From Escherichia phage N4, in sequence record NC_008720.1: a stretch of 64,000 nt of DNA. One strand, written 5' to 3'. Of this stretch, positions 19,585 through 21,164 are shown piece after piece (positions within the stretch are counted from its first letter, which is position 1; the number at the start of each line of letters is the position of its first letter). Made by a program: the position numbers and the translations under genes. The notes under the pieces were generated by a model. It searched no databases. It saw only the letters and a program-made list of their open reading frames with translations, and was not told the DNA's origin.

Positions 19585-20193
19585 ATGTCTGAAAAACTAT
19601 CAGGTGGTTTTAATAACTACTATCTGGTTCAGGTAACCAATCCTCAACGTATGGAACAGCCCCCATATCAGGCCGAGTGTGAGGATATTATCCAAGCACT
19701 AAATATGACCTTTGATGAAGGGTGTCTGTTCAAGGCATTGTGGCGTAATGCTGCTGCTCGTTTAGGTAACGGTAAACCAGGTAACACTGCCATTTATGAT
19801 GCAGAGAAGATGGTTCATTATGCTAACCGTATTTTTACTAAAGAATCCGGTGGGCAGAAAAAAGAAGCAGAAGAACCAGTTTCTGAGGCTCTGAAGAAGG
19901 GCGAAGAGATTCATATGTCTCTGGCTGAATTATTCACCCTGTTAACTGGTGAAGCAGCAGAAGGTGAAGTAATGAGCCTTGCTGGTTGGCATACTCATGT
20001 ACCCAACCGTTTGGGTGTTATGCCTATTGCTGTTTCAATGAGCAAAGCAGAACAAGTTGATGTAGTACGTGCCGATGGAACGACTATTACTCATGTATTT
20101 CCTCATGAGATTGACTGGTCTGATAAGATTGCCCCCTTTGCTCGAATCACTGCATGGCGTTTCAGTAACCCATCTAAGGTCGCTTCTAAATGA
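19585..20193 (+). CDS. Hypothetical protein (202 aa)
   Basis: ORF-track ORF; stop overlaps the next start. Confidence 0.45.
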   Translation: MSEKLSGGFNNYYLVQVTNPQRMEQPPYQAECEDIIQALNMTFDEGCLFKALWRNAAARLGNGKPGNTAIYDAEKMVHYANRIFTKESGGQKKEAEEPVSEALKKGEEIHMSLAELFTLLTGEAAEGEVMSLAGWHTHVPNRLGVMPIAVSMSKAEQVDVVRADGTTITHVFPHEIDWSDKIAPFARITAWRFSNPSKVASK

Positions 20194-21164
20194 AAATCAC
20201 GAACAATCATGACGTGTCTTTGCCATTAGCTGTTTGGCTTTTGCATGACGAGTATGATTACGTGAAGGATAAAAAGTATCTTTCTGTGACTACCCTGCTT
20301 AAGCCAATTAAGCACATTGTCATGAAGCATCGTGTAGACCTTTCTGTAGAAAGTATGGACATCATGGATTTGGTGTCCACTTCTATGGGTACAGGCTTAC
20401 ATGATTCTATTGAGAAGGCATGGCATAACGGACACCACAATGCATTACGCAAATTAGGGTATCCTGAGCGTGTTGTTCAGAATGTTGTCATCAACCCTAC
20501 CCCTGAACAGATTGCATCAAATCCAAACTTAATTCCTGTATGGATAGAACAACGAGCAACTAAAAAGATTGCTGGTTGGACTATTGGAGGCAAGTTCGAC
20601 ATCGTTACTGAAGGTCTTCTTCAGGATGTAAAATCCACCTCCACTTACACATGGGTAAAGGGCGGACGAGATGAAGAACACAAACTTCAGGGGTCAATGT
20701 ATCGTTGGTTGCATGACGATAAGATTACTGAAGATGTGATTCGTATTAACTACATCTTCACTGACTGGATGAAAGCATTAGCTACATCTCAAGAAAACTA
20801 TCCAAAGCATCGTGTGCTGCATAAAGACATTCCATTGATGTCTTATGAAGCGACTGAAGAATGGATTAAAGCCAAGCTAACTCTCATTGATAAGTACTGG
20901 GATGCTCCTGAAAGCGAGATTCCAGAATGTACTGATGAAGAGTTATGGCGTTCTGACCCAGTGTTTAAATACTTTGCTGACCCAGAGAAAGCAAAACAAC
21001 CTGGTGCTCGTTCTACCAAAAACTTCCCTACTCTCTTTGAGGCTAGGAAGTTCATGGCAGAGAAGGGCAAAGGCACTATTCTTCATGTTCCTGGTGAACC
21101 TAAACGATGCAACTATTGCTCAATTTTTAACATCTGCGAACAAAGAAAGAGATATTTCCCATGA
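20190..21164 (+). CDS. Putative PD-(D/E)xK nuclease with C-terminal Cys cluster (Cas4/RecB-like exonuclease)
   Basis: FDIV...LQDVKST (D...E/D.K-like) and C-terminal C-x2-C-x5-C (CNYCSIFNIC) preceded by another Cys; sits in the replication module. Confidence 0.45.
   Translation: MKITNNHDVSLPLAVWLLHDEYDYVKDKKYLSVTTLLKPIKHIVMKHRVDLSVESMDIMDLVSTSMGTGLHDSIEKAWHNGHHNALRKLGYPERVVQNVVINPTPEQIASNPNLIPVWIEQRATKKIAGWTIGGKFDIVTEGLLQDVKSTSTYTWVKGGRDEEHKLQGSMYRWLHDDKITEDVIRINYIFTDWMKALATSQENYPKHRVLHKDIPLMSYEATEEWIKAKLTLIDKYWDAPESEIPECTDEELWRSDPVFKYFADPEKAKQPGARSTKNFPTLFEARKFMAEKGKGTILHVPGEPKRCNYCSIFNICEQRKRYFP

What the first reader, a model, noticed from the sequence alone, without database searches (positions are those of the whole stretch)
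20190..21164. Nuclease with Cas4-like cysteine cluster in the replication module
The 324-aa protein combines a PD-(D/E)xK-like core (FDIV...LQDVKST) with a C-terminal C-x2-C-x5-C cluster, the arrangement seen in iron-sulfur-containing Cas4/AddB-type exonucleases. Given its position it may be the phage 5'-3' exonuclease needed for replication or recombination.
Basis: partly seen in the sequence, partly recalled or inferred. Interest (0 to 1): 0.3.

Follow-up and report, generated by a model that had tools for sequence, protein, structure and literature searches.

The report
Phage N4 gp42 Cas4-like exonuclease
This gene encodes the conserved N4-type phage exonuclease gp42, a Cas4/RecB-like DNA-cutting enzyme with a four-cysteine metal site. 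It most likely trims DNA ends for phage recombination and replication, so it is a largely ordinary and already catalogued gene, with one small structural twist.

Summary
ORF 20190-21164 (+) encodes a 324-aa protein, the orthologue of phage N4 gp42, a core gene of all N4-like phages.

- Across 387 homologues, the RecB-type catalytic residues are invariant or nearly so: H71, D137, D146-x-K148 and Q167-x3-Y171.
- All four cysteines (C247, C307, C310, C316) are equally conserved.

**Likely function**
- In N4 the gene is translationally coupled to the primase gene. A Sak4-like annealase, the SSB and a RuvC-like resolvase follow.
- In unrelated phages the same family sits beside Erf, RecT or Sak4 annealases. 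This points to a 5'-3' end-resection exonuclease for recombination-dependent replication.

**What is unusual**
- It is not a canonical Cas4. The N-terminal cysteine ligand is missing.
- The fourth ligand appears relocated to C247, after the nuclease core. A ~50-residue insert with no PDB counterpart separates it from the triad.

Databases already label this family "exonuclease", so interest is low.

The parts
20190..21164 (+). gp42 gene: 324-aa RecB-family (Cas4-like) PD-(D/E)XK exonuclease with a four-cysteine metal site
20283..20333 (+). N-terminal S32-x-T34-x-L36...K38-P39...R48 helix region. It corresponds to the segment that carries the first Cys ligand in canonical Cas4/AddB, but has no Cys here.
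   Evidence: S32, T34 and L36 are at least 90% conserved. The canonical Cys would fall at positions 41-44, using the distance to the motif-I His in MrAK gp36 and Vagabond gp13 as a ruler. At most 3 of 387 sequences have Cys at any of positions 38-46. K41 and H42 covary with the C-terminal module.
20388..20414 (+). Motif I: G67-x3-H71-x3-E75 on the long helix 58-88. H71 is the presumed metal-binding His of RecB-type nucleases.
   Evidence: G67 and H71 invariant, E75 96% conserved. H71 is kept in 117 of 119 branch-2 sequences. The role is assigned by analogy with RecB-family active sites (established knowledge).
20589..20633 (+). Motifs II and III: G134-K-F-D137 ... D146-V-K148, the PD-(D/E)xK catalytic core
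   Evidence: G134, D137, D146 and K148 are invariant in 148 sequences. D137, D146 and K148 are 119/119 in branch 2. They lie on adjacent beta strands 130-135 and 143-150 in the model.
20688..20702 (+). Motif IV: Q167-G-S-M-Y171, the QxxxY motif of RecB-like nucleases
   Evidence: Q167 invariant, Y171 99% conserved. 118/119 and 115/119 in branch 2.
20928..20948 (+). C247-T-D-E-E-L-W253 motif: invariant cysteine after the nuclease core, proposed as the relocated fourth metal ligand
   Evidence: C247 is 100% conserved in both branches and W253 about 99-100%. The motif is kept in vir555 as ACTDEERW. Segment 238-257 covaries with 300-324 within each clade (E246-R321 ranks 3rd; 10-11 of the top 250 pairs against about 2 expected).
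20949..21098 (+). Family-specific beta-beta-alpha-beta insert of about 50 residues (254-303), lying between C247 and the Cys triad
21108..21137 (+). C-terminal cysteine triad C307-x2-C310-x5-C316
   Evidence: At least 99% conserved and 119/119 in branch 2, where the spacing is mostly C-x3-C-x5-C. The spacing is the same as the triad of MrAK gp36, C276-x2-C279-x5-C285.
19585..20193 (+). Upstream gene gp41. Its stop overlaps the gp42 start (ATGA).
   Evidence: PHROG 37456, unknown function.
21161..23308 (+). Downstream gene gp43 (primase, PriCT_1/DUF3987). Its start overlaps the gp42 stop (ATGA).
23331..24122 (+). gp44: Sak4-like (RecA-core, AAA_24) ssDNA annealing protein, the proposed recombination partner
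   Evidence: PF13479 AAA_24 E=7.8e-12. phrog_124 'Sak4-like ssDNA annealing protein' E=5e-45.
24168..24965 (+). gp45: N4-type single-stranded DNA-binding protein
   Evidence: phrog_743 E=4.8e-77. Annotation of relatives.
24965..25522 (+). gp46: RuvC-like Holliday-junction resolvase
   Evidence: phrog_159 E=5e-40. Annotated 'putative RuvC-like recombination protein' in AlfredRasser.

Best explanation
gp42 is a Mg2+-dependent RecB-family PD-(D/E)XK nuclease of the 'iron-staple' (Cas4/AddB/EXO5/Dna2-like) type.

**Shown:** it has the fold, the complete catalytic motif set (H71, D137, D146-x-K148, Q167-x3-Y171) and four invariant cysteines.

**Inferred:**
- The four cysteines (C247 plus C307/C310/C316) bind one [4Fe-4S] cluster, or possibly Zn. 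This site clamps the C-terminal module against the N-terminal helix.
- The enzyme digests DNA 5'-to-3' from ends, like its structural relatives, leaving 3' single-stranded tails.
- In N4 these tails, for example at the terminal repeats or at broken forks, are coated by SSB gp45 and annealed by the Sak4-like gp44. The resulting branched intermediates are resolved by the RuvC-like gp46. This would give concatemer formation and recombination-dependent replication.
- In other phages the same nuclease family does this job with Erf or RecT annealases.
For: - **Gene and family:**. It is a core gene of all N4-like viruses (PMC7650795).
- **Motif and Cys invariance:**
- **Polarity of relatives:** SSO0001 is a 5'-3' ssDNA exonuclease with a 4Fe-4S cluster. 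The same paper describes AddB and yeast exonuclease V as 5'-3' exonucleases (PMC3466216).
- **Context in N4:** ATGA coupling to gp41 and to primase gp43. Sak4-like gp44, SSB gp45 and RuvC-like gp46 lie downstream.
- **Context elsewhere:** Erf adjacent in vir555 and in L012/L013. Erf two genes away in Planktothrix phage Pag-Yong1. RecT two genes away in Leptospira phage LE3. AAA_24/Sak4-like adjacent in L008/L009. In total, 5 of 8 non-N4-type loci have a recognised annealase within two genes.
- **Other N4 facts:** the N4 DNA polymerase lacks a 5'-3' exonuclease domain (PMC2784036). N4 SSB is required for recombination as well as replication (title of Choi et al. 1995, cited in PMC3821669).
Against: - No biochemical data exist for any family member, as far as my searches show.
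- Pfam PDDEXK_1 is just below its gathering score, and no sequence-level PDB relative was found even with a family profile.
- In N4 the exonuclease and the annealase are separated by the primase gene, so the pairing is looser than in lambda Red-type modules.
- Three of eight non-N4 loci show no recognisable annealase.
- Polarity, substrate (ssDNA or dsDNA ends) and metal identity are all by analogy.
- The structural relatives Dna2, EXO5 and MGME1 act in flap or primer processing rather than recombination.
Confidence: 0.7

Rival explanations
1. Replication-fork nuclease. gp42 would work with the primase and polymerase to remove RNA primers or 5' flaps during lagging-strand maturation, like Dna2, EXO5, MGME1 or T7 gp6, rather than in recombination.
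For: The gene overlaps the primase gene start (ATGA) and lies in the polymerase-primase operon. The N4 polymerase lacks a 5'-3' exonuclease domain (PMC2784036). EXO5, Dna2 and MGME1 are among the top structural neighbours.
Against: Outside the N4 group the family travels with Erf, RecT or Sak4 annealases, not with primases or polymerases. From my own recollection of Guinta et al. 1986, which I could not verify here, N4 replication needs the host Pol I 5'-3' exonuclease. That activity would already cover primer removal.
Confidence: 0.2
2. The four cysteines bind a structural zinc ion rather than an iron-sulfur cluster. The protein would still be a nuclease, but not an Fe-S enzyme.
Confidence: 0.3
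3. Counter-defence or CRISPR-manipulating Cas4. The phage nuclease would feed host-derived DNA into a host CRISPR adaptation machine, as proposed for Campylobacter phage Cas4-like proteins, or would otherwise attack host defences.
For: [quoted passage not shown] One homologue is annotated 'Cas4 family'. A weaker PHROG hit is to a family labelled 'CRISPR/Cas system associated' (phrog_1706, E=1.4e-9).
Against: There is no PF01930 hit and no PADLOC hit. The gene is a universal core gene of N4-like phages across hosts with and without Cas4-less CRISPR systems. It is embedded in the replication/recombination operon, not among early anti-host genes.
Confidence: 0.03
4. Host-chromosome degradation nuclease that supplies nucleotides for phage DNA synthesis.
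For: It is a nuclease in a lytic phage, and the neighbourhood in some relatives contains nucleotide-metabolism genes, such as ribonucleotide reductase and thymidylate synthase in phage Presley and MazG in Pag-Yong1.
Against: The consistent partners are annealases, SSB and a resolvase. Small temperate-like elements with an integrase also carry the gene. The exonuclease relatives act on DNA ends, not on intact chromosomes.
Confidence: 0.05

Closest known systems
Cas4 SSO0001 (PDB 4IC1) and the Cas4 family of [4Fe-4S] 5'-3' exonucleases
   Different: gp42 gives no Pfam Cas_Cas4 hit and has no CRISPR association. It lacks the N-terminal Cys ligand present in all Cas4 and Csa1 proteins (PMC3466216). 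Instead it has an invariant Cys after the core, plus an insert of about 50 residues. It is 324 aa against about 200 aa.
Phage pfam12705 Cas4-like exonucleases (for example Propionibacterium phage MrAK gp36, Mycobacterium phage 'Cas4 family exonuclease')
   Same: They are stand-alone phage-encoded RecB-like nucleases with four Cys, sited in replication/recombination regions. The motifs G..H, D, DxK and QxxxY are recognisable in the same order.
   Different: These keep the canonical 1+3 layout: C27 with C276/279/285 in MrAK gp36, and C48 with C228/231/244 in Vagabond gp13. MrAK gp36 passes both the PDDEXK_1 and Cas_Cas4 thresholds. Sequence similarity to gp42 is marginal, with tblastn E of 0.04 or worse and a non-significant hhalign result.
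AddB / AdnB / Dna2 / EXO5 'iron-staple' nuclease domains
   Different: AddB, AdnB and Dna2 are nuclease domains of large helicase-nuclease machines and EXO5 is a cellular (mitochondrial/nuclear) enzyme, whereas gp42 is a stand-alone phage protein. By the documented AddB arrangement and my recollection of the others, the first ligand in these proteins precedes the nuclease core.
Lambda Red-alpha / RecE / YqaJ exonucleases of two-component phage recombinases
   Different: RecE, lambda exonuclease and 3K93 have no Cys metal site to my knowledge, which I did not check here. The RecE-related 3L0A/DUF3799 nuclease is an exception, with a four-Cys Zn site. The sequence family is different. gp42-type enzymes pair with Erf, RecT or Sak4 interchangeably.

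Membership tests
RecB-like PD-(D/E)XK nuclease superfamily | Catalytic motifs in order: metal-binding His/Glu (motif I), Asp (II), (D/E)xK (III), QxxxY (IV) | tested here: met
   H71, D137, D146-x-K148 and Q167-x3-Y171 are invariant or at least 99% conserved in 148 sequences. They are at least 97% conserved in 119 distant sequences.
RecB-like PD-(D/E)XK nuclease superfamily | Restriction-endonuclease-like alpha/beta fold | tested here: met
RecB-like PD-(D/E)XK nuclease superfamily | Pfam PF12705 (PDDEXK_1) match above the gathering score | tested here: inconclusive
   20.3 bits against a cut-off of 22, E=6e-4. Presley gp42 scores 14.1 bits. Several branch-2 members carry a precomputed PF12705 hit.
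RecB-like PD-(D/E)XK nuclease superfamily | Divalent-metal-dependent nuclease activity | not testable with these tools
   Requires purified protein.
Cas4 family (PF01930/COG1468; CRISPR adaptation nuclease) | Match to the Cas_Cas4 profile | tested here: not met
   No PF01930 hit at E up to 1. No PADLOC hit. By contrast, MrAK gp36 scores 27.4 against a cut-off of 22.7.
Cas4 family (PF01930/COG1468; CRISPR adaptation nuclease) | Four conserved Cys arranged as one near the N-terminus plus three at the C-terminus (PMC3466216) | tested here: not met
   The C-terminal triad is present. No conserved N-terminal Cys exists: at most 3 of 387 sequences have Cys at positions 38-46, and no column before H71 exceeds 15 of 387. 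The fourth invariant Cys is C247, after the core.
Cas4 family (PF01930/COG1468; CRISPR adaptation nuclease) | Genomic association with cas1/cas2/CRISPR | tested here: not met
   The gene lies in a phage replication operon. No cas genes appear in any of the loci inspected.
Cas4 family (PF01930/COG1468; CRISPR adaptation nuclease) | Bound [4Fe-4S] or [2Fe-2S] cluster | not testable with these tools
   Needs spectroscopy or metal analysis. Zn is a documented alternative in a relative.
N4 gp42-like exonuclease family (PHROG 2139) | Full-length match to the family profile | tested here: met
   E=1.7e-147, residues 1-323 against profile positions 2-323 of 330. 99.7% identical to the VEc25 protein, and 474 phage records cover at least 80% of the query.
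N4 gp42-like exonuclease family (PHROG 2139) | Conserved position between gp41 and primase gp43 in N4-like genomes | tested here: met
   The same order is seen in AlfredRasser, LIT1 and Presley. gp42, gp43 and gp44 are core genes by three methods (PMC7650795).
Exonuclease component of a phage exonuclease/annealase recombination system (functional class of lambda Exo and RecE) | Encoded next to a single-strand annealing protein | tested here: met
   Erf, RecT and Sak4/AAA_24. 5 of 8 non-N4 loci qualify. In N4 the Sak4-like gene is two genes downstream.
Exonuclease component of a phage exonuclease/annealase recombination system (functional class of lambda Exo and RecE) | Processive 5'-3' digestion of dsDNA ends and functional dependence on the partner annealase | not testable with these tools
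   Requires nuclease assays and recombineering or genetic tests.

The most novel reading that the evidence does not exclude
gp42-type enzymes may be a distinct, very large phage branch of the iron-staple nucleases. In this branch the metal site has been rewired: the ancestral N-terminal Cys ligand was lost and replaced by a Cys (C247) that follows the nuclease core. A new ~50-residue beta-beta-alpha-beta module with no PDB counterpart was threaded between ligand 1 and ligands 2-4.

On this reading the cluster now staples this new module onto the nuclease. The module would be an interaction or DNA-end-recognition surface that lets one nuclease family work with three unrelated annealases (Erf, RecT, Sak4). 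gp42 would also be the gene for the classical N4 'exo' 5'-3' exonuclease activity, which I recall from the 1986 N4 replication studies and did not find tied to an ORF in the literature I could search.
Probability: 0.4. Interest if true: 0.4.

Novelty: new variant of a known kind. Interest (0 to 1): 0.25.

Why it matters
The finding gives a concrete, testable function to one of the roughly 14 proteins shared by all N4-like phages (Schitoviridae). That protein is still named only "gp42" in the N4 entry listed by the 2020 family review. It also ties gp42 to its neighbours gp44 (Sak4-like), gp45 (SSB) and gp46 (RuvC-like) as one recombination-dependent replication module.

For nuclease biochemistry, it offers a natural experiment on the "iron staple". 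A large family (about 2,800 clusters at 50% identity) has moved one cluster ligand and inserted a new module. This bears on whether the cluster is purely structural.

In practice, exonuclease/annealase pairs are the basis of recombineering tools. A nuclease family that partners with Erf, RecT and Sak4 could broaden that toolkit.

None of this overturns current understanding. The gene is already labelled "exonuclease" in databases.

Tried and rejected
- **PDB by sequence.** Searches with the single protein and with the 148-sequence profile found nothing meaningful. The same was true for vir555, Vagabond gp13 and MrAK gp36. Only fold comparison linked the family to solved structures.
- **NCBIfam and PADLOC.** NCBIfam gave only a spurious hit. 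PADLOC gave none.
- **hhalign of the family profile against MrAK gp36.** It aligned the two Cys triads but was not significant (probability 0.5%, E=0.13). I therefore mapped the canonical N-terminal Cys using motif order and the distance to the motif-I His instead.
- **Cys-Cys distances.** The model coordinates are not exposed, so I could not measure them. As a substitute I used MI-APC covariation. The all-sequence run could be inflated by the two-clade split, so I repeated it within each clade with a random-window control. It supports contact (p about 0.03), but this is modest evidence.
- **Literature on the classical N4 exonuclease and on gp42.** No open-access text assigns the N4 5'-3' exonuclease to an ORF. 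My statement that N4 encodes such an activity (Guinta et al. 1986; Rist et al. 1986) rests on my own recollection.
- **The N4 reference record.** It was not in the phage collection under NC_008720 or EF056009.
- **The unannotated 232-aa neighbour in L010.** I tested whether it is an Erf like the 232-aa neighbour in L012. It is not similar.
- **Rejected annotation.** The label 'UvrD/Rep family helicase' given to the orthologue in phage AlfredRasser is wrong. The protein has no helicase motifs or hits.
- **The isolated C-terminal module.** A PDB fold search found no significant match.
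Full report
**1. The observation**

The window is an N4-type coliphage genome (genus Enquatrovirus). The 12 kb around the finding is 98% identical to Escherichia phages vB_Eco_SPSP, 3HA13, VEc25 and AlfredRasser.

ORF 20190-21164 (+) is real and encodes 324 aa. The opposite strand is closed. Its ATG overlaps the stop of the upstream gene (ATGA at 20190-20193) and is preceded by an AAGG Shine-Dalgarno sequence. Its stop overlaps the ATG of the downstream primase gene (ATGA at 21161-21164). The gene is therefore translationally coupled within the replication operon.

They are GKFD137IV, LQD146VK148ST and C307-x2-C310-x5-C316. The protein has only one further cysteine, C247.

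**2. Identity of the gene**

The protein is the orthologue of N4 gp42.
- It matches PHROG 2139 ("exonuclease") end to end at E=1.7e-147.
- It occurs in 475 phage records, nearly all Schitoviridae. They are annotated variously as "exonuclease", "RecB family exonuclease", "PD-(D/E)XK nuclease superfamily", "N4 gp42-like protein" or "hypothetical".
- The 2020 review of N4-like viruses lists gp42 among about 14 proteins shared by the whole group by three methods, still without a functional name (PMC7650795).
- Another paper calls it a PD-(D/E)XK nuclease domain protein (PMC7845610).
- An exhaustive HMMER scan found 2,803 clusters (at 50% identity) with E up to 1e-3 and 361 with E up to 1e-30. It is a very large family.

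**3. Is it a PD-(D/E)XK nuclease with conserved cysteines?**

Yes.

In 148 sequences at 36-83% identity, the invariant columns are G67, H71, E120, G134, D137, D146, K148, Q167, P205 and C247. C307, C310, C316, Y171, S169 and R122 are at least 90% conserved. These make up the RecB-type motif set: His (I), Asp (II), DxK (III) and QxxxY (IV).

A second, distant branch contains the Methanomicrobiales virus vir555, Pelagibacter phage Baldr, Planktothrix/Synechococcus phages, Leptospira phages LE3/LE4 and many metagenomic contigs. It is about 25% identical to gp42. In 119 of its sequences the same four Cys columns are kept at 100%, and no other conserved Cys column exists.

Pfam PDDEXK_1 is hit just below threshold (20.3 against 22 bits). 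There is no sequence-level relative in the PDB, even with a profile.

The AlphaFold2 model built on the family alignment is very confident (pLDDT 97.2, pTM 0.91).

**4. Where it departs from Cas4**

Zhang, Kasciukovic and White documented the canonical arrangement. Cas4, Csa1, AddB and SIRV2 gp19 have three C-terminal cysteines plus a fourth near the N-terminus. Together these form the "iron staple" (PMC3466216).

I recovered canonical phage members for comparison.
- Propionibacterium phage MrAK gp36 has a full-length PDDEXK_1 match (E=6e-18) and Cas_Cas4 above its threshold. Its cysteines are C27 plus C276-x2-C279-x5-C285.
- Mycobacterium phage Vagabond "Cas4 family exonuclease" has C48 plus C228, C231 and C244.

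In both, the N-terminal Cys lies 27-30 residues before the motif-I His and about 8 residues after an S-x-S-x-L motif. gp42 retains the equivalent S32-x-T34-x-L36 motif and the helix that follows. However, the predicted ligand position (41-44) holds R/K, Q/H, I and I/V.
- Across 387 family members, at most 3 have Cys at any of positions 38-46.
- No column before H71 exceeds 15 Cys.
- Half of the proteins have exactly four Cys in total.

I could not read model coordinates, so the C247-triad distance is not measured. As indirect evidence I used covariation (MI with APC), computed separately within each clade.
- It links segment 238-257 to 300-324. E246-R321 ranks 3rd of about 50,000 pairs in the N4-type clade, and R254-P304 ranks 12th in the other clade.
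- 10 and 11 of the top 250 pairs fall between the two segments, against 1.8 and 2.6 expected from random windows (fraction of windows reaching the observed count about 0.03).
- The N-terminal helix (K41, H42) also couples to this module.

My reading is as follows. The staple geometry is retained, the N-terminal ligand has been lost, and C247 has taken its place. The new insert is held between ligand 1 and ligands 2-4. That C247 is a ligand is an inference. That the canonical ligand is absent is shown.

Triad spacing is C-x2-C-x5-C in the N4-type clade but C-x3-C-x5-C in 106 of 119 members of the other clade. Whether the site holds [4Fe-4S], [2Fe-2S] or Zn cannot be decided from sequence. A relative (3L0A) has Zn in the same site.

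**5. What it does**

The N4 gene order in the window is:
- SF1 helicase (14804-16123)
- DNA polymerase (about 16.6-19.2 kb)
- gp40 and gp41
- gp42
- primase gp43 (PriCT_1/DUF3987)
- gp44 (AAA_24; phrog_124 "Sak4-like ssDNA annealing protein", E=5e-45)
- gp45 SSB
- gp46 (phrog_159 "RuvC-like Holliday junction resolvase", E=5e-40)

This order rests, and on the annotation of AlfredRasser.

Outside the N4 group the family is repeatedly adjacent to annealases of three unrelated families.
- Erf overlaps or abuts it in vir555 and in contigs L012/L013.
- Erf is two genes away in Planktothrix phage Pag-Yong1.
- RecT is two genes away in Leptospira phage LE3.
- An AAA_24/Sak4-like protein is adjacent in L008/L009.
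- Three loci (Baldr, L010, L011) show no recognisable annealase.

This is the signature of the exonuclease half of a two-component phage recombinase, the niche of lambda Exo and RecE. The characterised structural relatives documented in PMC3466216 (SSO0001, AddB and yeast exonuclease V) are 5'-3' exonucleases. I recall the same 5'-3' polarity for RecE and lambda exonuclease, and a 5'-flap or 5'-end-directed activity for Dna2, but did not verify this here.

I therefore propose that gp42 resects DNA ends 5'-to-3'. The resulting 3' tails are bound by gp45 and annealed by gp44, and the joints are resolved by gp46. This would give concatemers and recombination-primed replication.

Two published points are consistent with this. 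The N4 polymerase lacks a 5'-3' exonuclease domain (PMC2784036). N4 SSB is needed for recombination as well as replication (title of Choi et al. 1995, cited).

From my own recollection, not verifiable in the held library, classical work identified an N4-coded 5'-3' exonuclease needed for N4 DNA replication in vivo and in vitro (Guinta et al. 1986; Rist et al. 1986). gp42 is the obvious candidate gene.

**6. Rivals**

- A fork-maturation role (primer or flap removal, as for Dna2 and EXO5) is favoured by the coupling to the primase gene. It is disfavoured by the annealase associations elsewhere (confidence 0.2).
- Zn instead of Fe-S is an open alternative about the cofactor only (0.3).
- A CRISPR-manipulating Cas4 role (0.03) and host-DNA scavenging (0.05) have little support. 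There is no PF01930 or PADLOC hit, the gene is a universal core gene, and its context is recombination.

**7. Comparison and novelty**

The protein works like a Cas4/AddB-type iron-staple exonuclease. It belongs to the RecB-like PD-(D/E)XK superfamily and to the already catalogued gp42/PHROG 2139 family.

It fails three defining tests of the Cas4 family proper: the profile match, the 1+3 Cys layout and CRISPR association. It should therefore not be filed as a Cas4.

What is added here:
- the relocated ligand and the insert
- the extent of the family beyond N4-like phages
- the interchangeable pairing with Erf, RecT and Sak4

I rate it a new variant of a known kind. At the annotation level, however, the gene is already known as an "exonuclease", and a specialist would not be surprised. 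Interest is 0.25.

Noticed in passing
window 19585-20193 (gp41): Relatives annotate this 202-aa protein as '3'-phosphatase, 5'-polynucleotide kinase'. Here, only residues 6-81 match the last ~75 positions of the PNK PHROG (phrog_7063, E=2.8e-20). There is no Pfam hit, and the best family is of unknown function. The PNK label looks like an over-transferred annotation from a shared C-terminal/N-terminal module.
   Followed up: partly
L001 7895-8869 (Escherichia phage AlfredRasser, orthologue of window 20190-21164): The gp42 orthologue is annotated 'UvrD / Rep family helicase' in this record. The protein has no helicase domain or motif. The label is probably a mis-transfer from helicase-nuclease fusion proteins that carry a PDDEXK_1 domain.
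   Followed up: yes
window about 16581-19247 (DNA polymerase gene) versus L001 3678-6952: The polymerase gene is one uninterrupted ORF in this window and in phage 3HA13. In AlfredRasser it is a two-piece joined CDS interrupted by a ~600-bp 'putative homing endonuclease' gene. VEc25 and SPSP likewise align in 2-3 pieces with about 700 extra bases and carry two 'DNA polymerase I' features. This looks like a mobile intron or intein-type insertion that is polymorphic among near-identical N4 strains.
   Followed up: no
window 26298-26977: A cluster of four phage tRNA genes (Asn-GTT, Ser-TGA, Thr-TGT, Pro-TGG) lies just downstream of the replication/recombination operon. It matches the annotation in AlfredRasser.
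   Followed up: partly
L016 1312-2112 (Arthrobacter phage Laroye gp94 'exonuclease'): This phage RecB-like exonuclease has yet another cysteine layout. It has two Cys at the N-terminus (C38-x2-C41) and two at the C-terminus (C226-x2-C229), instead of 1+3. The metal site of phage Cas4-like nucleases seems to have been rewired more than once.
   Followed up: no
L010 4001-6083 (metagenomic contig SRR23086375_433209): Here the gp42-family nuclease gene overlaps a downstream tyrosine integrase gene (PF00589), and an N6/N4 methyltransferase gene follows. The family therefore also occurs in temperate or integrative elements, not only in lytic phages.
   Followed up: no
L006 1746-2351 (Planktothrix phage Pag-Yong1): A 201-aa protein a few genes upstream of the gp42-family nuclease is annotated 'CRISPR-associated endonuclease Cas9/Csn1 family'. 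At that size it is more likely a stand-alone HNH or RuvC-type nuclease. I did not check this.
   Followed up: no
window 16133-16660 and 16581-19247: The mechanically listed polymerase ORF starts at 16581 and overlaps the preceding gene by 80 bases. By coordinate transfer from L001, the annotated start in AlfredRasser (L001 3678) falls near window 16677, about 9 nt from the in-frame ATG at 16668 (MRHITF...). The offset was not resolved, but the true start is probably this downstream ATG rather than 16581.
   Followed up: no
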